Source: Escherichia coli
Lineage (GTDB): Bacteria; Pseudomonadota; Gammaproteobacteria; Enterobacterales; Enterobacteriaceae
DNA length: 64,000 bases
NCBI RefSeq assembly: GCF_045037415.1
Contig: NZ_CP173438.1
Direction: 5' to 3' (one strand)
Shown here: piece after piece, positions 314 through 36,295 of the stretch
How the letters are laid out: every line of letters begins with the position of its first letter
How positions within the stretch are numbered: the first letter of the stretch is position 1
The notes under the pieces: model-generated
Seen by the model: only the letters and a program-made list of their open reading frames with translations
Database searches by the model: none
Told to the model about the DNA's origin: nothing
Made by a program: the position numbers and the translations under genes

Positions 314-1096
314 ATGCGCACAAGCGACGTTACGCAACTGATGGATCTGGCGCTGGGGCTGTGGTTTCCCTTCGTGCGCATTATGGCGTTTCTGCGCTAT
401 ATGCCGGTGCTGGATAACAGCGCCCTGACCGCGCGCGTGCGGATTATTTTGTCGCTGGCGCTGGCGATCATCATCACGCCGTTGATCCCCCATCCCATTC
501 CCCACAATCTGCTATCGCTCAACAGCCTGATCCTGACGGTGGAGCAAATTTTATGGGGCATGTTATTCGGGCTGATGTTTCAGTTTTTGTTTCTGGCGCT
601 ACAACTGGCCGGGCAAATTCTCTCGTTCAATATGGGGATGAGCATGGCGGTGATGAACGACCCGAGCAGCGGCGCATCGACCACCGTGCTGGCGGAGCTA
701 ATCAACGTCTACGCGATCCTGCTGTTTTTTGCCATGGACGGGCATCTGCTGCTGGTAAGCGTGTTGTACAAGGGCTTCACCTACTGGCCGATTGGCAACG
801 CCCTGCATCCGCAAACCCTGCGTACCATCGCGCTGGCCTTTAGCTGGGTGCTGGCGTCGGCATCGCTGCTGGCGCTGCCGACCACTTTTATCATGCTGAT
901 TGTGCAGGGCTGCTTTGGCTTGCTCAACCGTATTGCGCCGCCGCTGAACCTTTTTTCTCTTGGCTTTCCGATCAACATGCTGGCGGGGCTGGTCTGTTTT
1001 GCCACCCTGCTCTACAACCTGCCGGATCACTATCTGCATCTGGCGAATTTTGTCTTACAACAACTCGACGCGCTGAAAGGTCACTATGGCGGATAG
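314..1096 (+). CDS. lfiR: FliR-family flagellar export apparatus membrane protein (Flag-2 LfiR)
   Basis: Polytopic membrane ORF of FliR size; ATG at 314 two nt after the lfiQ stop (the ORF track starts upstream at 263); 11-nt overlap with the next gene. Confidence 0.8.
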   Translation: MRTSDVTQLMDLALGLWFPFVRIMAFLRYMPVLDNSALTARVRIILSLALAIIITPLIPHPIPHNLLSLNSLILTVEQILWGMLFGLMFQFLFLALQLAGQILSFNMGMSMAVMNDPSSGASTTVLAELINVYAILLFFAMDGHLLLVSVLYKGFTYWPIGNALHPQTLRTIALAFSWVLASASLLALPTTFIMLIVQGCFGLLNRIAPPLNLFSLGFPINMLAGLVCFATLLYNLPDHYLHLANFVLQQLDALKGHYGG

Positions 1097-2225
1097 CAGC
1101 AGCGAAGAAAAAACAGAGAAACCCTCGGCGCAAAAGCTGCGTAAAGCGCGTGAAGAGGGGCAACTGCCGCGCTCGAAGGATATGGGGCTGGCGGCGAGCC
1201 TGTTTGCGGCGTTTGTGGTGATCTCCAGCAGTTTTCCGTGGTATGCCGATTTTGTGCGCGAGAGCTTTATCAGCGTGCATCAGTATGCGCAGGAGATTAA
1301 TAACCCGCAGGTGATCGGCCAGTTTCTGCGCCATCACCTGTTAATTCTCGGCAAGTTTATCCTCACCTTGCTGCCGATGCCTGCTGCCGCGCTGCTCTCT
1401 TCGCTGGTGCCCGGCGGCTGGCTGTTTCTGCCAAAAAAAATCCTCCCGGATTTCAGCAAAATCAGTCCGTTAAAAGGCATTGGGCGGCTGTTTTCCAGTG
1501 AACATCTGGCGGAAACGGGAAAGATGACGGTGAAGTCTGTGGTGGTGCTGGTGATGCTGTGGGTAAGCCTGCGCAATAACTTTGCCGCCTTTCTCAGCCT
1601 GCAGGCGCTGCCGTTCAAACTGGCGATAAATGACGGTTTATCGCTCTACGCCAGCGTGATGCGCAACTTTGTCATTCTGTTTATCTTCTTCGCGCTTATC
1701 GACGTGCCGCTGGCGAAAGCCCTGTTCACCAAAGGGCTGAAGATGACCAAACAGGAGCTGAAAGAAGAGTACAAAAATCAGGAAGGTAAGCCGGAAGTGA
1801 AGGCGCGTGTGCGGCGACTGCAACGGCAACTGGCGATGGGGCAAATCCGCAAAGTGGTGCCGAAAGCCAACGTGGTGATCACCAACCCGACCCACTACGC
1901 CGTGGCGTTACAGTATGACCAGTCGCGCGCCGCCGCGCCGTTTGTGGTGGCAAAAGGCACCGATGAAATCGCCCTCTATATTCGCCAGGTCGCCACGGAG
2001 AATCAGGTGGAAGTGGTCGAGTTCCCGCGGCTGGCACGCTCGGTTTACTACACCACCCAGGTGAACCAGCAAATTCCGTTTCAGCTTTACCGGGCCATCG
2101 CCCACGTTCTGACCTACGTCCTGCAAATGAAACACTGGCGCGAGGGCGCACAGCCGCGCCCGGCCCTGAACAGACATATTTCCATTCCCAAAGAGGTGCT
2201 TAAACTGGATGGCGAAAACAACTAA
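1086..2225 (+). CDS. lfhB: FlhB-family export switch protein (Flag-2 LfhB)
   Basis: 379 aa; N-terminal KTEKPSAQKLRKAREEGQ and NPTH autocleavage motif (VVITNPTHYAVAL) typical of FlhB/SctU. Confidence 0.85.
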   Translation: MADSSSEEKTEKPSAQKLRKAREEGQLPRSKDMGLAASLFAAFVVISSSFPWYADFVRESFISVHQYAQEINNPQVIGQFLRHHLLILGKFILTLLPMPAAALLSSLVPGGWLFLPKKILPDFSKISPLKGIGRLFSSEHLAETGKMTVKSVVVLVMLWVSLRNNFAAFLSLQALPFKLAINDGLSLYASVMRNFVILFIFFALIDVPLAKALFTKGLKMTKQELKEEYKNQEGKPEVKARVRRLQRQLAMGQIRKVVPKANVVITNPTHYAVALQYDQSRAAAPFVVAKGTDEIALYIRQVATENQVEVVEFPRLARSVYYTTQVNQQIPFQLYRAIAHVLTYVLQMKHWREGAQPRPALNRHISIPKEVLKLDGENN

Positions 2226-4302
2226 ATCGTTCCTTGCGCTGCTGCGCGGCGGCAATCTCGGCGTGCCGCTGGTCATACTGTGTATTCTGGCGATGGTTAT
2301 TCTGCCGCTGCCGCCTGCGCTGCTGGATATTCTGTTCACCTTCAACATTGTGCTGGCGGTGATGGTACTGCTGGTGGCGGTGTCGGCGAAACGACCGCTG
2401 GAATTCAGCCTGTTCCCGACCATTTTGCTGATCACCACCTTAATGCGCCTGACGCTTAACGTCGCCTCTACGCGCGTGGTGCTGTTGCACGGGCATCTCG
2501 GCGCGGGCGCGGCGGGTAAGGTGATAGAGTCGTTTGGTCAGGTGGTGATCGGCGGCAACTTTGTCGTCGGTTTCGTGGTGTTTATCATCCTGATGATCAT
2601 CAACTTTATCGTCGTCACCAAAGGGGCCGAGCGTATTTCCGAGGTTTCTGCCCGCTTTACCCTGGACGCGATGCCCGGCAAACAGATGGCAATTGACGCC
2701 GATCTTAATGCCGGGTTGATCAACCAGGCACAGGCGCAGACCCGGCGCAAAGATGTTGCCAGCGAGGCCGATTTTTACGGCGCGATGGACGGGGCATCGA
2801 AGTTTGTGCGCGGGGATGCCATCGCCGGGATGATGATTCTGGCGATCAACCTGATCGGCGGCGTCTGTATTGGGATCTTCAAATACAACCTGAGCGCCGA
2901 TGCTGCCTTCCAGCAATATGTGTTGATGACCATCGGCGACGGCCTGGTGGCGCAGATCCCTTCCCTGCTGCTCTCCACCGCGGCGGCGATTATCGTCACC
3001 CGCGTCAGCGACAACGGCGATATCGCCCATGACGTGCGTAATCAGTTGCTGGCAAGCCCGTCGGTTCTCTACACCGCCACTGGAATTATGTTCGTGCTGG
3101 CGGTGGTGCCGGGAATGCCGCATTTCCCGTTCCTGATGTTCAGCGCCCTGCTTGGTTTTACCGGCTGGCGGATGAGCAAGCGCCCGCAAGCGGCGGAGGC
3201 GGAAGAGAAAAGCCTCGAAACGCTAACCCGTACGATGACAGAAACCAGCGAGCAACAGGTCAGTTGGGAAACTATTCCGCTGATCGAACCTATCAGTTTA
3301 AGCCTCGGCTACAAACTGGTGGCGCTGGTGGATAAAGCGCAGGGTAATCCGCTCACCCAGCGGATTCGCGGTGTACGGCAGGTGATATCCGACGGTAACG
3401 GAGTTCTGCTGCCGGAGATCCGTATTCGGGAAAACTTCCGCCTCAAGCCCAGCCAGTACGCCATTTTCATCAACGGCATTAAGGCTGATGAAGCGGATAT
3501 TCCGGCGGATAAACTGATGGCCCTGCCCTCCAGCGAAACCTACGGCGAGATTGACGGCGTACTGGGGAATGACCCGGCGTACGGGATGCCGGTCACCTGG
3601 ATTCAACCCGCGCAGAAAGCGAAGGCGCTGAATATGGGGTATCAGGTGATCGACAGCGCCAGCGTGATTGCCACCCATGTGAATAAGATTGTGCGCAGCT
3701 ATATTCCTGACCTCTTTAACTATGACGATATTACGCAGCTGCATAACCGTTTGTCGTCGATGGCACCGCGACTGGCGGAAGATTTGAGCGCGGCACTCAA
3801 TTACAGCCAGTTGCTGAAAGTGTACCGGGCGCTACTGACTGAAGGCGTTTCCCTGCGCGATATCGTCACCATCGCCACCGTGCTGGTCGCCAGTAGTGCG
3901 GTGACCAAAGATCATATTCTGCTGGCGGCAGATGTGCGCCTGGCGCTGCGGCGCAGCATTACCCATCCGTTCGTTCGCAAGCAGGAGCTGACGGTGTATA
4001 CGCTGAATAATGAGCTGGAAAATCTGCTGACCAACGTGGTGAATCAGGCGCAACAGGGCGGGAAAGTGATGCTTGATAGCGTGCCAGTGGACCCGAATAT
4101 GCTCAACCAGTTCCAGAGCACGATGCCTCAGGTGAAGGAGCAGATGAAAGCGGCGGGGAAAGATCCGGTGCTGCTGGTGCCGCCGCAACTGCGCCCCTTG
4201 CTGGCGCGCTACGCAAGGTTGTTTGCGCCGGGGCTGCATGTGCTGTCGTATAACGAAGTGCCGGATGAGCTGGAGTTGAAGATAATGGGGGCGTTGATGT
4301 AG
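2209..4302 (+). CDS. lfhA: FlhA-family export gate protein (Flag-2 LfhA), full length
   Basis: 697 aa with N-terminal TM domain and FlhA/SctV cytoplasmic domain; overlaps lfhB by 17 nt; lies beside rayT as in the described Flag-2 locus. Confidence 0.85.
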   Translation: MAKTTKSFLALLRGGNLGVPLVILCILAMVILPLPPALLDILFTFNIVLAVMVLLVAVSAKRPLEFSLFPTILLITTLMRLTLNVASTRVVLLHGHLGAGAAGKVIESFGQVVIGGNFVVGFVVFIILMIINFIVVTKGAERISEVSARFTLDAMPGKQMAIDADLNAGLINQAQAQTRRKDVASEADFYGAMDGASKFVRGDAIAGMMILAINLIGGVCIGIFKYNLSADAAFQQYVLMTIGDGLVAQIPSLLLSTAAAIIVTRVSDNGDIAHDVRNQLLASPSVLYTATGIMFVLAVVPGMPHFPFLMFSALLGFTGWRMSKRPQAAEAEEKSLETLTRTMTETSEQQVSWETIPLIEPISLSLGYKLVALVDKAQGNPLTQRIRGVRQVISDGNGVLLPEIRIRENFRLKPSQYAIFINGIKADEADIPADKLMALPSSETYGEIDGVLGNDPAYGMPVTWIQPAQKAKALNMGYQVIDSASVIATHVNKIVRSYIPDLFNYDDITQLHNRLSSMAPRLAEDLSAALNYSQLLKVYRALLTEGVSLRDIVTIATVLVASSAVTKDHILLAADVRLALRRSITHPFVRKQELTVYTLNNELENLLTNVVNQAQQGGKVMLDSVPVDPNMLNQFQSTMPQVKEQMKAAGKDPVLLVPPQLRPLLARYARLFAPGLHVLSYNEVPDELELKIMGALM

Positions 4303-4520
4303 GCATCCGGCATCGGTGCATATTGCCGGATGCGGCGTGAACGCCTTATCCGGCCTACGGGTGAGCACGGTTTTGTCGGCATGATAAGACGCGTAGCGGC
4401 GCATCTGGCACCGGTGCACAACTGCCGGATGCGGCGTGAACGCCTTATCCGGCCTACGGGTGAGCGCGGTTTTGTCGGCATGATAAGACGCATCTGCGTC
4501 GCATCAGGCATCGGCGCACA
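4303..4520. repeat. REP/BIME cluster (at least two GCCGGATGCGGCGTGAACGCCTTATCCGGCCTAC units plus inverted partners)
   Basis: Repeated palindromic REP consensus visible directly; located between the lfhA stop and the rayT 3' end. Confidence 0.85.
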
Positions 4521-4521
4521 G

Positions 4522-5019
4522 CTATAAAATGATACGCTCCCCAGCACTAAAATCCGTTACGTCCTCCGCCCAATCGATGGGATATAACCCTCGCGCGACA
4601 TCGCGATGAAACGTTGAGAATGGCCAATCACTCACTTGCTTTACCCAACCATGTTTTACTGGATTTATATAAATATAATCAACATGATGGCGATAGTCTT
4701 GGGTATTGCGAATGGCATGCTCCCAAAAACGCGGTTGCCAGATATTTTTCAATCCACAAGCATGGGTAAATTGCTTTTTAATTTCCCGCCAGCGCGAGGA
4801 AAAATCATCATCGCCTTCAGGTAATGTCCATATGCAATGCATATGCTCCGGCAAAACTACCCAAGCGTTAATTTCAAAAGGTCTGTCTCGCTTAACGTTA
4901 ATAATAGCGTTACGGAGCGTCTGAAACTGGGTGGTCAAAAGTTGGTTTCGACGATTCTGTAAATTTACCGTGAAAAACCAGGTTCCCCCCTTGATGTAAT
5001 AACGACGATATTCAGACAT
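4522..5019 (-). CDS. rayT: REP-associated tyrosine transposase (RAYT, IS200/IS605-like HUH protein)
   Basis: 165 aa with HUH-type HMH motif and conserved Tyr region (YIYINPVKHGWV); flanked on both sides by REP sequences. Confidence 0.85.
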   Translation of the reverse strand: MSEYRRYYIKGGTWFFTVNLQNRRNQLLTTQFQTLRNAIINVKRDRPFEINAWVVLPEHMHCIWTLPEGDDDFSSRWREIKKQFTHACGLKNIWQPRFWEHAIRNTQDYRHHVDYIYINPVKHGWVKQVSDWPFSTFHRDVARGLYPIDWAEDVTDFSAGERIIL

Positions 5020-5104
5020 AACGACTCCTTTTTCTCAACGGTAAGAAGAAAAGGAAAAGTCGGCAATGATGTTGTGTTAAATCGGGAAAGCGGCTCGCAA
5101 AAAA

Positions 5105-5198
5105 TGCACAGATTTATAGGCATGATAAGACGCGTAGCGTCGCATCAGGCACCGGTACACAACCGCCGGATGCGGCGTGAACGCCTTATCCGGCCTAC
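5105..5198. repeat. REP element(s) on the other flank of rayT
   Basis: GCATGATAAGACGCG...GCCGGATGCGGCGTGAACGCCTTATCCGGCCTAC; abuts and overlaps the yafL stop codon. Confidence 0.8.
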
Positions 5199-5953
5199 AA
5201 AATCGTCTCTTCCGTCAAAATCCGCCGCGCGCCCAAAAAATGATCCTGCCAGAAAGGTTCAGCTAACCGACTTACCCGAATGGTTTCCCCGGTGCGCGGT
5301 GACTCGATAAACTGACCGTCTCCAAGATATACGCCCATATGGTCGGCTATCTCACGGCTGTGGATATGGAAAAACAGCAAATCTCCCCGGCGCAGGTCGT
5401 TATTCGCCACAATCGTTGCCCGACGGTAGTGGTACATCTCATTGGCCGTGCGCGGGAGCTTAGCCTCAAGGATCTTGTTGTAGGCATAAAAAACCAACCC
5501 GCTACAGTCGAAACCTTTATCAGGCCGCGTGCCCCCCCAGACATAAGGCTTGCCAAGTTGCTGTTCCAGGCGGTGAATCGCCACTTCGGTGATGTTATGC
5601 AGGTGGTTGCTGCTGAGGAAATGATTGTTTTCCGCCAGCGCCTGCCAGCGTCTGTCGTTCGCCTTGAGCGGCGCAGGAAACCATTCTGGATGCTGTTTTA
5701 TCTGCTCCCGATTATGCTGGCGCAGCGCCCTTCTGCTTTTAGCATTGCCTTCCACAATATAGCTGGCCTGCTTTTTCAGATGGGTTTGGTACTGTTTTAA
5801 TAAACGCGCACGGTTTTGCATCCGCTGGCGGGCGGCGTAGCTAAAAGAGATATGTGATGTGGTGGCGCTGGCGAGTAAAGGGAGCAAAACGCATAACGAA
5901 AACACGCCTGGATGCAGAAATCTGCCGTGCAAGAACGAAGACATGAAGGACAT
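5195..5953 (-). CDS. yafL: NlpC/P60-family lipoprotein (peptidoglycan endopeptidase-like)
   Basis: 252-aa ORF with signal peptide and C-terminal NlpC/P60-like region (DCSGLVFYAY ... HMGVYLGDGQFIES); exact start uncertain. Confidence 0.75.
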   Translation of the reverse strand: MSFMSSFLHGRFLHPGVFSLCVLLPLLASATTSHISFSYAARQRMQNRARLLKQYQTHLKKQASYIVEGNAKSRRALRQHNREQIKQHPEWFPAPLKANDRRWQALAENNHFLSSNHLHNITEVAIHRLEQQLGKPYVWGGTRPDKGFDCSGLVFYAYNKILEAKLPRTANEMYHYRRATIVANNDLRRGDLLFFHIHSREIADHMGVYLGDGQFIESPRTGETIRVSRLAEPFWQDHFLGARRILTEETIL

Positions 5954-7797: not shown

Positions 7798-7932
<135 letters not shown>

Positions 7933-7938
7933 CCAGAC

Positions 7939-8517
7939 TTACTTAACCATCTCTTTTTCAATTAACTGGATCAGGATATGGATCACTTTAATGTGGATCT
8001 CCTGAATGCGGTCGGCATAACCAAAGTGCGGTACGCGAATTTCGATATCCGCCGTGCCAGCCATTTTGCCGCCGTCTTTACCGGTCAGGGTGATCACTTT
8101 CATCCCCTTCTCACGCGCCGCCGCGATCGCTTTGATCACGTTTGCAGAGTTACCGGAGGTGGAGATCCCCAGCAGTACATCGCCTTCGCGACCTACCGCT
8201 TCAACGTAACGGGAGAAAATATCATTGAAACCAAAATCGTTACCGACGCAGGAAATATGACTAACGTCAGAAATGGCAATCGCCGGGTAGCCCGGACGGT
8301 TTTCACGGTAGCGACCGGTCAACTCTTCGGCAAAGTGCATGGCGTCGCAATGGGAGCCGCCGTTGCCACAGGAAAGCACTTTGCCACCGGCTTTAAAGCT
8401 GTCTGCTAACAGGACCGCCGCGCGCTGAATGGCGTGAATATTGGCGTCATCTTTTAAAAAGTTAGCCAGCGTTTCCGCCGCTTCGTTCAGTTCATTACGA
8501 ATAAGATCCTGGTACAT
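7939..8517 (-). CDS. gmhA: Phosphoheptose isomerase (sedoheptulose-7-phosphate isomerase)
   Basis: 192 aa starting [20 protein letters not shown]; SIS domain; the ORF track extends to 8679 but the conserved start is the ATG at 8515-8517. Confidence 0.9.
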
Positions 8518-12739: not shown

Positions 12740-12816
12740 TGGCGGAACGGACGGGACTCGAACCCGCGCCCCCCTGCGTGACAGGCAGGTATTCTAACCG
12801 ACTGAACTACCGCTCC
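12740..12816 (-). tRNA. aspV: tRNA-Asp (GUC), aspV-type copy with one variable-loop substitution
   Basis: 77-nt match to tRNA-Asp including CCA; differs from the copy at 20965-21041 only at 12769. Confidence 0.9.
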
Positions 12817-20964: not shown

Positions 20965-21041
20965 TGGCGGAACGGACGGGACTCGAACCCGCGACCCCCT
21001 GCGTGACAGGCAGGTATTCTAACCGACTGAACTACCGCTCC
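20965..21041 (-). tRNA. aspU: tRNA-Asp (GUC), distal gene of the rrnH-type operon
   Basis: Exact 77-nt match to remembered E. coli tRNA-Asp including CCA. Confidence 0.95.
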
Positions 21042-21093
21042 ACCGAATTCTTTTACAACCACCGGTTTTATGACCGGCTTACTGCTTAATTTG

Positions 21094-21213
21094 ATACCTG
21101 GCAGTTCCCTACTCTCGCATGGGGAGACCCCACACTACCATCGGCGCTACGGCGTTTCACTTCTGAGTTCGGCATGGGGTCAGGTGGGACCACCGCGCTA
21201 AGGCCGCCAGGCA
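21094..21213 (-). rRNA. rrfH: 5S ribosomal RNA
   Basis: 120-nt match to E. coli 5S rRNA with about three substitutions relative to the commonest copy. Confidence 0.92.
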
Positions 21214-21313
21214 AATTCTGTTTTATCAACACGTCCCGTTATGACCTGTCGATTTAATCTGCTATCAAGCTTACTTATCGATGTCTCTTCCGCCAAAACA
21301 TCTTCGGCGTTGT

Positions 21314-24217
<2,904 letters not shown>

Positions 24218-24400
24218 TCACAACCCGAAGATGTTTCTTGCGATTCATCATCGTGTTGCGAAAATTTGAGAGACTCACGAACAACTCTCGTTGTTCAGTG
24301 TTTCAATTTTCAGCTTGATCCAGATTTTTAAAGAGCAAAACTTCGCAGTGAACCTTTGCAGGTACACTCTGAAGTATTTTTTATTTAATCACTACAGAGA

Positions 24401-24476
24401 TGGTGGAGCTATGCGGGATCGAACCGCAGACCTCCTGCGTGCAAAGCAGGCGCTCTCCCAGCTGAGCTATAGCCCC
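24401..24476 (-). tRNA. alaV: tRNA-Ala (UGC), 16S-23S spacer
   Basis: Exact 76-nt match to tRNA-Ala(UGC) with CCA. Confidence 0.95.
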
Positions 24477-24518
24477 ATAACATGTAGTTAAAACCTCTTC
24501 AAATTTGCGGTGCAAATT

Positions 24519-24595
<77 letters not shown>

Positions 24596-24663
24596 GTAGA
24601 GGTTTTACTGCTCATTTTCATCAGACAATCTGTGTGAGCACTTCAAAGTACGCTTCTTTAAGG

Positions 24664-26205
<1,542 letters not shown>

Positions 26206-33817: not shown

Positions 33818-33853
33818 ATGCCGGATGCGGCGTGAACGCCTTATCCGGCCTAC
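33818..33853. repeat. REP element between yaeF and nlpE
   Basis: GCCGGATGCGGCGTGAACGCCTTATCCGGCCTAC consensus unit. Confidence 0.75.
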
Positions 33854-33949
33854 AAAATCGTGCTAATTCAAAATATTGCATTGTATGCTTTAGGCCTGAT
33901 AAGCGCAGCGCATGAGGCAATATTTCATTTGTTTCTGCCTCAAGACGGG

Positions 33950-36004: not shown

Positions 36005-36251
36005 TACGTATCAACCAATCAATTGTGATGATTACGATAATCTTGAGCTCGCCTGCCAGCATCATTTAATGCTGACACTTGAGCTGAAAGATGGCGAAAA
36101 ATTGCAGGCGAAGGCCAGCGATTTAGTCTCCCGCAAAAATGTGGAGTATCTGGTCGTCGAGGCCGCTGGTGCAACCCGCGAGCTGCGTCTGGATAAAATT
36201 ACCAGCTTTAGCCACCCGGAAATCGGTACGGTGGTGGTGAGCGAGTCCTGA
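35991..36251 (+). CDS. rof: Rho-binding antiterminator Rof (YaeO)
   Basis: 84-86 aa ([24 protein letters not shown]...); start may be the second ATG at 35997. Confidence 0.85.
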
Positions 36252-36260
36252 TTGACTTTC

Positions 36261-36295
36261 GCCGGATGCGACGTTTGATGCGTCTTATCCGGCTT
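36261..36295. repeat. Degenerate REP-like palindrome between rof and tilS
   Basis: GCCGGATGCGACGTTTGATGCGTCTTATCCGGC; overlaps the tilS stop. Confidence 0.6.

What the first reader, a model, noticed from the sequence alone, without database searches (positions are those of the whole stretch)
4303..5200. REP-associated transposase flanked by inverted REP/BIME arrays
A HUH-type transposase (rayT, 4522-5019) is bracketed by REP clusters on both flanks (4303-4520 and 5105-5198). This is the canonical REP-RAYT arrangement. The left array directly abuts the lfhA stop and the right array overlaps the yafL stop, so REP structures form the 3' ends of both neighbouring transcripts. The same REP family recurs at 7798-7932, 33818-33853 and 36261-36295, consistent with RAYT-driven dispersal.
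Basis: partly seen in the sequence, partly recalled or inferred. Interest (0 to 1): 0.3.

Follow-up and report, generated by a model that had tools for sequence, protein, structure and literature searches.

The report
Known E. coli rayT REPtron locus
This is the well-described single-copy E. coli gene for the REP-associated tyrosine transposase RayT (YafM/TnpA-REP), sitting between clusters of the short REP hairpin repeats it acts on; it is real but ordinary and already published.

Summary
ORF 4522-5019 (-) is RayT/TnpA_REP. It scores 179 bits on NCBIfam NF047646 (cutoff 80) and matches crystal structure 4ER8 at E=1.5e-112. It differs from the K-12 protein at 9 of 165 residues and keeps H59-M60-H61, Y115, N119, H123 and E161.

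REP units of the E. coli y and z2 types flank it at 4299-4521 and 5116-5198, organised as BIME-2. Identical or near-identical y units recur at 7897-7931 and 33819-33853; chance expectation is 0. The locus is 100% identical to many RefSeq E. coli chromosomes, where the gene is annotated rayT. It is the "REPtron" between yafL and lfhA/fhiA described by Ton-Hoang et al. 2012: one BIME 5' of the gene and a variable number 3'.

- The two flanking arrays are direct repeats of each other (93 nt, 91% identical), not inverted. The inversion is only within each BIME.
- The sequence abutting the lfhA stop is a z2 REP with a 23-nt internal deletion.
- The unit at 36261-36295 is an atypical REP-like hairpin without GTAG.
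- The y unit at 33819 has a degenerate z1 partner at 33890-33920 that was missed.
- All three z2 units beside rayT have a mutated GTAG.

Dispersal by RayT and REPs acting as transcript 3' ends are literature-based inferences, not tested here. Novelty: already known. Interest is low.

The parts
2209..4302 (+). lfhA (Flag-2 FlhA-like export gate), intact here; the convergent neighbour whose stop TAG (4300-4302) lies in the GTAG of a REP remnant
   Evidence: Pfam FHIPEP 809 bits, TIGR01398 775.8 bits. RefSeq annotation flhA. K-12 has only a pseudogene.
4299..4323 (+). Remnant of a z2 REP with a 23-nt internal deletion (GTAGGCAT^CCGGCA), followed by an 11-nt linker-like stretch
   Evidence: Aligns with the intact first z2 unit of the rayT-less strain 23AR1217; the only large gap is 23 nt. 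Family D3.
4324..4358 (-). y REP (GTAG-bearing strand is the - strand); bulged hairpin
   Evidence: Exact consensus match. DNA fold -12.2 kcal/mol, z -3.6.
4375..4410 (+). z2 REP, degenerate (GTCG instead of GTAG; poor hairpin)
   Evidence: blastn/nhmmer hits. Fold z +0.59.
4423..4457 (-). y REP, identical to 4324-4358
   Evidence: With 4375-4410 it matches Rfam naRNA4 at 60.5 bits, cutoff 59.5.
4474..4510 (+). z2 REP (GTCG instead of GTAG). On the - strand its hairpin starts about 12 nt after the rayT stop
   Evidence: (z -2.98).
4522..5019 (-). rayT (yafM, tnpA_REP): 165-aa REP-associated HUH/Y1 tyrosine transposase; HUH at 59-61, Y115
   Evidence: NF047646 179.2 bits, cutoff 80. 4ER8_A E=1.5e-112. 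Residue check and 9 differences from K-12. RefSeq annotation.
5020..5115 (-). rayT upstream region with Shine-Dalgarno AAGGAG (5030-5025) 5 nt before the ATG; no sigma-70 consensus found
   Evidence: Sequence. Promoter scan found 0 sites.
5116..5151 (+). z2 REP (ATAG instead of GTAG) of the single 5' BIME
   Evidence: (z -2.92).
5164..5198 (-). y REP of the 5' BIME. Its GTAG contains the yafL stop codon (5195-5197), and the hairpin stem starts immediately after the stop
   Evidence: BIME 5119-5195 matches Rfam naRNA4 at 69.1 bits.
5195..5944 (-). yafL (NlpC/P60 C40 peptidase), upstream and co-directional with rayT
   Evidence: Pfam NLPC_P60 114.6 bits. RefSeq annotation.
7800..7931 (.). Dispersed BIME-2 cluster: degenerate y (7800-7831), z2 with intact GTAG (7848-7884) and y (7897-7931), 7 nt after the lpcA/gmhA stop
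   Evidence: (naRNA4 80.6 bits).
33819..33920 (.). Dispersed y REP (33819-33853, identical to those at rayT), a 36-nt A/T-rich linker and a degenerate z1-like REP (33890-33920). BIME-1-like, between convergent yaeF and nlpE
   Evidence: (nhmmer E 2e-5 for the z1-like unit).
36261..36295 (.). Atypical REP-like hairpin (y-type foot, z-type upper stem, no GTAG) between convergent rof and tilS; overlaps the tilS stop (36285-36287)
   Evidence: (z -4.0).

Best explanation
**Identity.** This is the E. coli REPtron: the single chromosomal copy of rayT (yafM/tnpA_REP) embedded in a tandem BIME-2 array of alternating y and z2 REPs. It lies between yafL and the Flag-2 gene lfhA.

**Enzyme.** RayT is a domesticated, monomeric HUH/Y1 single-strand DNA endonuclease related to IS200/IS605 transposases. 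The following is shown for the K-12 orthologue, not for this allele. The enzyme binds a folded single-stranded REP hairpin, and binding needs the 5' GTAG and the stem bulge. It cleaves at CT dinucleotides through a 5'-phosphotyrosine on Y115, and it can rejoin strands.

**Inferred action.** RayT does not move itself. It is inferred to act in trans on REP/BIME units, slowly generating, amplifying and dispersing them. The dispersed y units at 7897 and 33819 are such family members.

**REPs as RNA.** Independently of RayT, the REPs are transcribed at gene 3' ends, where they form stable hairpins. Published work links such hairpins to mRNA 3'-end protection, transcription attenuation and, when within about 15 nt of a stop codon, reduced translation. 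Here the yafL, rayT and lpcA stops fall within that distance. This last step is inferred for these genes.
For: **Protein identity.**
- NF047646 equivalog 179 bits against a cutoff of 80.
- 4ER8 match at E=1.5e-112.
- H59/M60/H61/Y115/N119/H123/E161 are all retained and match the residues named in PMC3479197.

**Locus identity.**
- 100% identical to RefSeq chromosomes annotated rayT-yafL-flhA.
- 94% identical to K-12 MG1655 and colinear with it, with the same architecture.
- Published description: a unique position between yafL and fhiA, with a single BIME on the 5' side and a variable number on the 3' side (PMC3333891). The window shows exactly this: one BIME at 5116-5198, and two BIMEs plus a remnant at 4299-4510.

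**Copy number and distribution.**
- rayT is present in 3574 of 5426 complete genomes, with a median of 1 and a maximum of 2 places per genome.
- REP matches occur in 5425 of 5426 genomes.

**Repeats.**
- Same family at the flanks and at the dispersed sites, far above chance.
- Bulged hairpins.
- The arrays fold strongly as RNA: z -5.0 and -4.4.

**Activity.** In-vitro binding, cleavage and strand transfer were shown on this very REPtron BIME of K-12 (PMC3333891).
Against: - No experiment was done on this allele. It carries 9 substitutions relative to the crystallised protein.
- All three z2 units beside rayT have lost GTAG (GTCG, GTCG, ATAG). By the published binding rule, only the y units on the - strand would be competent substrates here.
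- In-vivo mobilisation of REPs by RayT has not been demonstrated. About a third of E. coli genomes lack rayT yet keep their REPs. Ton-Hoang et al. saw only minor copy-number differences, while Park et al. report fewer REPINs without RAYT.
- No promoter or terminator consensus was found at 4200-5400. How rayT is transcribed, and whether the REPs really mark RNA 3' ends here, is unknown.
Confidence: 0.95

Rival explanations
1. The rayT-plus-REP unit is an active, autonomous IS200/IS605-type insertion sequence that transposes as a whole. The flanking hairpins would serve as its left and right ends.
For: - RayT is related to IS200-like Y1 transposases: Pfam Y1_Tnp gives a weak hit of 17.2 bits over the HUH region.
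- Hairpins lie on both sides of the gene.
- The published comparison to IS200/IS605 structure.
Against: - One copy per genome, always at the same yafL-lfhA locus, in 3574 genomes.
- The Pfam hit is below the gathering score of 23.
- Plasmid occurrences are F-prime plasmids or mislabelled chromosomes.
- The literature states that REPtrons do not transpose as a unit.
Confidence: 0.02
2. RayT is dispensable or a relic, and it is not what maintains the REPs. On this reading the REP/BIME clusters here are host regulatory and structural elements whose spread is due to host recombination and replication slippage. Their roles would include mRNA 3' stabilisers or attenuators, translation dampers near stop codons, and gyrase, IHF or HU binding sites.
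For: - 1852 of 5426 genomes lack rayT while 5425 of 5426 carry REP matches.
- A rayT-less strain keeps a seamless three-unit BIME-2 array at this very locus.
- Every REP unit in the window sits at a gene 3' end, several within 15 nt of a stop.
- The tandem arrays are direct repeats prone to slippage.
- Ton-Hoang et al. found only minor REP-number differences with and without tnpA_REP.
Against: - The gene is intact, with all catalytic residues and a strong Shine-Dalgarno sequence.
- It is conserved as a full-length ORF in two thirds of genomes at 90-100% identity.
- The enzyme specifically recognises and cleaves these REPs in vitro.
- Genomes with RAYT hold more REPINs (PMC8049555).
- The host roles are not exclusive of RayT-driven spread.
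Confidence: 0.2
3. The BIME units flanking rayT are genes for nucleoid-associated non-coding RNAs of the naRNA4 type, which act with HU in chromosome condensation.
For: The Rfam naRNA4 model passes its gathering score (59.5) on 5119-5195 (69.1 bits), 4378-4454 (60.5 bits) and 7851-7928 (80.6 bits). All three matches are on the - strand.
Against: - naRNA4 derives from the REP325 BIME cluster, so the model is in effect a y-linker-z2 BIME-2 model. Any BIME-2 will match it.
- No evidence for expression or HU binding can be obtained here.
Confidence: 0.1

Closest known systems
E. coli K-12 MG1655 REPtron: rayT/yafM (b0228, TnpA_REP; PDB 4ER8) with flanking BIME-2 (Ton-Hoang et al. 2012, PMC3333891; Messing et al. 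2012, PMC3479197)
   Same: - Same locus, between yafL and lfhA/fhiA.
- Same gene length (165 aa) and the same catalytic residues.
- Same architecture: a single y/z2 BIME 5' of the gene, two BIMEs plus a remnant 3' of it.
- 94% DNA identity, colinear.
   Different: - 9 amino-acid substitutions: R21Q, S25N, Y32F, M34T, H37N, K41N, K107Q, G152E and S165L (K-12 residue first).
- All three z2 units here have a mutated GTAG/CTAC, which is intact in K-12.
- The 5' y REP is consensus here but has a stem change in K-12.
- lfhA is intact here and a pseudogene in K-12.
IS200/IS605-family Y1 transposases (TnpA of IS608, ISDra2)
   Same: - HUH motif plus a single catalytic tyrosine.
- Recognition of imperfect single-stranded DNA hairpins.
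- Cleavage at a distance from the hairpin, with a 5'-phosphotyrosine intermediate (literature).
   Different: - RayT is a monomer, is auto-inhibited by a C-terminal tail (E161) and prefers Mn2+.
- It is single-copy and does not mobilise itself.
- Its Pfam Y1_Tnp score is below threshold.
REPIN-RAYT systems of Pseudomonas fluorescens and other bacteria (Nunvar 2010; Bertels & Rainey 2011, PMC3116915)
   Same: - A single-copy, vertically inherited RAYT flanked by its cognate REPs.
- REP doublets in inverted orientation that fold into a long hairpin.
   Different: - The E. coli doublets are asymmetric (y versus z2).
- They are arranged as tandem BIME-2 arrays.
- The two flanks of rayT are direct repeats of each other.

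Membership tests
RAYT / TnpA_REP (REP-associated tyrosine transposase) | Match to the curated family model above its cutoff | tested here: met
   NF047646 equivalog, 179.2 bits against a cutoff of 80, E 4e-53.
RAYT / TnpA_REP (REP-associated tyrosine transposase) | HUH motif and catalytic tyrosine, plus the extra metal ligands on helix alpha-D and the C-terminal tail | tested here: met
   H59-M60-H61, Y115, N119, H123 and E161 are all present. They are the residues named for 4ER8 in PMC3479197. Alignment to 4ER8_A covers 1-164.
RAYT / TnpA_REP (REP-associated tyrosine transposase) | Single copy per genome at a fixed locus (domesticated, does not copy itself) | tested here: met
   3574 genomes have a match, with a median of 1 and a maximum of 2 places per genome. 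The gene lies between yafL and flhA/lfhA in every rayT-bearing row where the match reaches both neighbours.
RAYT / TnpA_REP (REP-associated tyrosine transposase) | Flanked on both sides by the REP family that is dispersed in the genome | tested here: met
   y units at 4324, 4423 and 5164 share the same 34-nt core as the dispersed 33819 unit and differ by 1 nt from the 7897 unit.
RAYT / TnpA_REP (REP-associated tyrosine transposase) | Binds and cleaves single-stranded cognate REP (GTAG- and bulge-dependent, CT cleavage site) | not testable with these tools
   Shown in vitro for the K-12 protein, which shares 156 of 165 residues (PMC3333891). Not shown for this allele.
IS200/IS605 insertion sequence | Pfam Y1_Tnp (PF01797) match above gathering; multi-copy, self-mobilising element | tested here: not met
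   17.2 bits against a gathering score of 23. Single copy at a fixed locus.
E. coli REP (y, z1, z2 types) | 30-40 nt imperfect palindrome with an internal mismatch or bulge | tested here: met
   Nine of 11 units folded give the bulged hairpin with z about -3 to -4. Units 4375-4410 and 7800-7831 are degenerate. The z1-like unit at 33890-33920 was not folded.
E. coli REP (y, z1, z2 types) | Conserved GTAG tetranucleotide 5' of the hairpin foot | tested here: inconclusive
   Met by all six y units and by the z2 at 7848. Not met by the three z2 units next to rayT (GTCG, GTCG, ATAG), the z1-like unit (TTAG) or the 36261-36295 hairpin (none).
BIME-2 | [quoted passage not shown] | tested here: met
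   The order is z2(remnant)-y-z2-y-z2-[rayT]-z2-y, with linkers of 11-12 nt and 16 nt. The tandem period is 99 nt (family D2). Rfam naRNA4, a BIME-2-derived model, passes gathering on three units.
naRNA4 (Rfam RF02564) | Covariance-model score at or above gathering; a discrete HU-associated RNA | tested here: inconclusive
   The score criterion is met: 69.1, 60.5 and 80.6 bits against 59.5. Expression and HU binding are not testable here. The model matches BIME-2 units generically.

The most novel reading that the evidence does not exclude
Two small points that I did not find stated in the papers I read.

(i) The sequences bracketing rayT are direct repeats: z2 plus linker at 4474-4521 and at 5116-5163. 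A rayT-less strain carries a seamless BIME-2 tandem that is colinear with this locus once 4522-5163 is removed. The published "precise excision" of tnpA_REP may therefore be ordinary recombination or slippage between direct repeats rather than a transposase event. Equivalently, the rayT cassette occupies the slot of one y REP in a tandem array.

(ii) rayT's own stop codon lies about 12 nt from a REP hairpin. RayT synthesis could therefore be throttled by REP-dependent ribosome stalling, which would be feedback from the RNA form of its own substrate.
Probability: 0.3. Interest if true: 0.25.

Novelty: already known. Interest (0 to 1): 0.06.

Why it matters
It matters little beyond correct annotation. 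The locus is the textbook example of a domesticated HUH transposase with its REP/BIME repeats, with a crystal structure and in-vitro biochemistry already published for the K-12 orthologue.

The open questions in the field are whether and how RayT moves REPs in vivo, and why a third of E. coli strains can lose it. This window does not make either question newly testable.

The corrections made here are useful only as detail for anyone cataloguing REPtron alleles. The main ones are the direct rather than inverted flanks, the GTAG-mutated z2 units, the internally deleted z2 at the lfhA stop, and the seamless BIME array in a rayT-less strain.

Tried and rejected
- **Fuzzy-regex REP scan in Python.** It timed out. 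I replaced it with blastn-short and an nhmmer profile built from the 12 units. Neither found a further REP unit in the 64-kb window above noise.
- **Promoter and terminator consensus scan of 4200-5400.** It found nothing on either strand. I therefore cannot say from sequence how rayT is transcribed or that the arrays terminate transcription.
- **Pfam at the default threshold.** No family was returned for RayT. A relaxed run gave only a sub-threshold Y1_Tnp hit. I rejected classing the element as an IS200/IS605 element.
- **B2 empty site in CFT073.** I guessed coordinates and missed the locus. I found rayT-less loci through searches with the flanks instead.
- **Hit H109.** It looked like a deletion junction but still carries rayT.
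- **rayT on plasmids.** I checked this because the literature says RAYTs are not found on plasmids. Most of the hits are F-prime plasmids from laboratory K-12 cultures or megabase records labelled as plasmids; the smaller records, including two divergent ones, were not examined. Rejected as natural plasmid carriage.
- **Liang, Rudd & Deutscher 2015.** A literature search for the primary paper on REPs near stop codons did not retrieve it. That mechanism is cited from my own knowledge and from its summary in bioRxiv 10.1101/2024.07.17.603846.
Full report
**What is in the sequence**

The window is E. coli chromosome. Bases 4200-5300 are 100% identical to many complete RefSeq genomes, for example strain SK1144 (NZ_AP018784.2). 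There the three genes under the match are annotated flhA, rayT and yafL.

- **ORF.** ORF 4522-5019 on the minus strand encodes 165 aa.
- **Convergent neighbour.** lfhA at 2209-4302 (+) is a FHIPEP/FlhA protein of the Flag-2 cluster. It is intact here and a pseudogene in K-12.
- **Upstream neighbour.** yafL, an NlpC/P60 peptidase, lies upstream on the same strand at 5195-5944.

**The protein**

- **Family models.** It scores 179.2 bits on NCBIfam NF047646, "REP-associated tyrosine transposase" (equivalog, cutoff 80). It aligns end to end with PDB 4ER8 chain A, "TnpArep", at E=1.5e-112.
- **Comparison with K-12.** It differs from K-12 RayT at 9 of 165 positions.
- **Catalytic residues.** It keeps H59-M60-H61, Y115, N119, H123 and E161. 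These are the active-site residues listed for the crystal structure by Messing et al. (PMC3479197).
- **Pfam.** Y1_Tnp is hit only below threshold: 17.2 bits against 23. This fits RAYTs being a divergent clade of Y1 transposases.
- **Translation signal.** A strong Shine-Dalgarno sequence (AAGGAG) sits 5 nt before the ATG.

**The repeats**

The 34-nt y-REP consensus occurs exactly at 4325-4358, 4424-4457, 5165-5198 and 33820-33853, and with one mismatch at 7898-7931. No match is expected by chance.

z2-type units in the opposite orientation lie at 4375-4410, 4474-4510, 5116-5151 and 7848-7884. Read along the + strand, the locus is:

[z2 remnant 4299-4312] - y - z2 - y - z2 - rayT - z2 - y

Linkers alternate between 11-12 nt and 16 nt, and the tandem period is 99 nt. 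This is a BIME-2 array.

As single-stranded DNA, the y units and most z2 units fold into the characteristic hairpin with a two-base bulge (-8.7 to -12.2 kcal/mol, z about -3 to -4). The units at 4375-4410 and 7800-7831 are degenerate. As RNA the arrays fold far better than shuffles: z -5.0 for 4295-4525 (+) and z -4.4 for 5100-5205 (-).

Rfam's naRNA4 model, which derives from a BIME-2 cluster, passes its gathering score (59.5 bits) on three of the y-linker-z2 units.

An nhmmer profile built from the 12 units found no further REPs in the 64 kb. Half of the window's REP units are therefore at the rayT locus.

1. The two flanks are not inverted with respect to each other. All three y units share one orientation and all three z2 units the other. 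Segments 4365-4457 and 5106-5198 are a 93-nt direct repeat at 91% identity. Inversion exists only inside each BIME.
2. What abuts the lfhA stop is not an intact REP. GTAGGCATCCGGCA (4299-4312) is a z2 unit with a 23-nt internal deletion, as shown by alignment to the intact unit of strain 23AR1217. The first intact REP starts 22 nt after the stop.
3. The lfhA stop (TAG) lies within a REP GTAG tetranucleotide on its coding strand, and so does the yafL stop (TAG) on its own coding strand.
4. 36261-36295 is a good hairpin with a y-type foot and a z-type upper stem, but it has no GTAG. It is an atypical relative.
5. The y unit at 33819 has a degenerate z1-like partner at 33890-33920, beyond a 36-nt A/T-rich linker. 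This makes a BIME-1-like pair between yaeF and nlpE.
6. All three z2 units beside rayT carry GTCG, GTCG or ATAG instead of GTAG. K-12's equivalents and the dispersed z2 at 7848 are intact.

**Comparison with what is known**

Ton-Hoang et al. 2012 (PMC3333891) described this structure as the "REPtron". They reported:

- invariably one BIME on the 5' side and a variable number on the 3' side;
- loss in some lineages, either by replacement with hicAB or by precise deletion that leaves the BIMEs.

The window matches point for point and aligns colinearly with K-12 at 94% identity.

On 5426 complete genomes I find the same picture:

- rayT is present in 3574 genomes (66%), with a median of one place per genome.
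- REP matches are present in 5425 genomes.
- Alternative states at the locus include hicAB, a bare BIME array and a REP-free 97-nt spacer.
- Most plasmid hits are F-prime plasmids or mislabelled chromosomes.

**Mechanism**

Shown for the K-12 orthologue:

- The enzyme binds only single-stranded REP.
- Binding needs the GTAG and the stem bulge.
- It cleaves at CT dinucleotides and carries out strand transfer.
- It is a monomer, is auto-inhibited by its C-terminal tail and prefers Mn2+.

Inferred:

- It acts in trans to diversify, amplify and disperse BIMEs.
- The evidence on whether REP numbers depend on it is mixed. Ton-Hoang et al. saw minor differences. Park et al. saw fewer REPINs in RAYT-less genomes (PMC8049555).

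Inferred for this window:

- By the published binding rule, only the y units would be competent substrates. Their GTAG strand is the minus strand, which is also the rayT sense strand.

It is also consistent with every REP unit in the window lying at a gene 3' end. It was not tested, and no intrinsic terminator or sigma-70 consensus is present.

REP hairpins begin 0 nt after the yafL stop, about 12 nt after the rayT stop and 11 nt after the lpcA stop. A REP-like hairpin begins 10 nt after the rof stop. That is within the roughly 15-nt distance reported to cause ribosome stalling and reduced translation. I cite that effect from Liang et al. 2015 from my own knowledge, and from its summary in bioRxiv 10.1101/2024.07.17.603846.

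**A small addition**

Removing 4522-5163 in silico yields a sequence colinear with the rayT-less locus of strain 23AR1217. Identity is 92.7% over 301 aligned positions, and the only large gap is the 23-nt z2 deletion.

That empty site is a seamless three-unit BIME-2 tandem. rayT is bracketed by direct z2-plus-linker repeats at 4474-4521 and 5116-5163. Loss of the gene is therefore explained most simply by recombination or slippage between direct repeats.

Put another way, the rayT cassette occupies the slot of one y REP in a tandem array. The paper speaks of "precise deletion" and does not mention homologous recombination or direct repeats (term search).

**Verdict**

The feature is already known in detail, including gene name, structure, biochemistry and population distribution. 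Interest is low.

Noticed in passing
window 5119-5195, 4378-4454, 7851-7928 (all - strand): Rfam naRNA4 (RF02564, nucleoid-associated ncRNA) passes its gathering score on three BIME-2 units: 69.1, 60.5 and 80.6 bits against 59.5. The model probably behaves as a generic y-linker-z2 BIME-2 detector rather than marking real naRNA genes.
   Followed up: partly
L007 595-880 (E. coli 23AR1217, NZ_CP195371.1): In this rayT-less strain the lfhA-yafL spacer is a seamless tandem of three BIME-2 units. It is colinear (92.7% identity) with the window once 4522-5163 is removed. This fits loss of rayT by recombination between the direct repeats that bracket it.
   Followed up: yes
L004 803-900 (E. coli DFL.5, NZ_CP104843.1): A further locus state: a 97-nt lfhA-yafL spacer with no REP, no rayT and no hicAB. 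It contains a different G+C-rich palindrome (CCCTCGCCCCTTTGGGGCGAGGG). The yafL stop still sits in GTAGGACGGCAATA, which looks like a REP with its hairpin core missing. This genome also gave fewer REP-containing matches (15 places against a typical ~26).
   Followed up: partly
H28, E. coli DP033 NZ_CP096110.2 3982991-3986627: An IS3-family IS1397 transposase gene is annotated under the match to the REPtron region, whose span is about 1.4 kb longer than the query. IS1397 is known to target BIME palindromic units.
   Followed up: no
window 4474-4524; 5195-5198; 7927-7941; 36249-36295: REP hairpins start within 15 nt of several stop codons: yafL (0 nt), rayT itself (about 12 nt), lpcA/gmhA (11 nt) and rof (10 nt). 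The tilS stop lies inside the REP-like hairpin. RayT's own translation might therefore be subject to REP-dependent ribosome stalling.
   Followed up: partly
window 4375-4378, 4474-4477, 5116-5119: All three z2 units next to rayT have a mutated GTAG (GTCG, GTCG, ATAG). K-12 keeps CTAC/GTAG at the same positions, and the dispersed z2 at 7848 is intact. This is an allele-specific decay of the motif required for RayT binding.
   Followed up: partly
window 4522-5019 versus E. coli genomes: rayT identities are bimodal: 565 records at 99% or more, 340 at 95-99% and 2676 at 90-95%. This window carries the minority allele, about 6% diverged in DNA from the K-12 type.
   Followed up: no
plasmid records H52-H65: rayT occurs on 14 PLSDB "plasmids". 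Several are ~214-242-kb plasmids from laboratory K-12 cultures, interpreted here as F-primes, and two are 0.8-Mb and 4.9-Mb records that look like chromosomes. Two chicken-meat records (CP044307.1, CP044308.1) carry divergent copies at 81-83% identity that were not examined.
   Followed up: partly
window 1086-4302: The Flag-2 (lateral flagella) genes lfhB and lfhA are intact, whereas K-12 retains only an lfhA pseudogene fragment.
   Followed up: partly
window 20968-26205 and 59816-59902: Rfam finds an rRNA operon on the minus strand: 16S at 24664-26205, two tRNAs at 24404-24595, StyR-44 at 24225-24333, 23S at 21314-24217, 5S at 21096-21211 and a tRNA at 20968-21041. It also finds another tRNA at 12743-12816 and t44 RNA at 59816-59902.
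   Followed up: no
window between 5300 and 33794: Gene ends projected from SK1144 coordinates are 1 nt lower than those from the window's ORF list. The window therefore differs from that record by a 1-nt indel somewhere in this interval.
   Followed up: no
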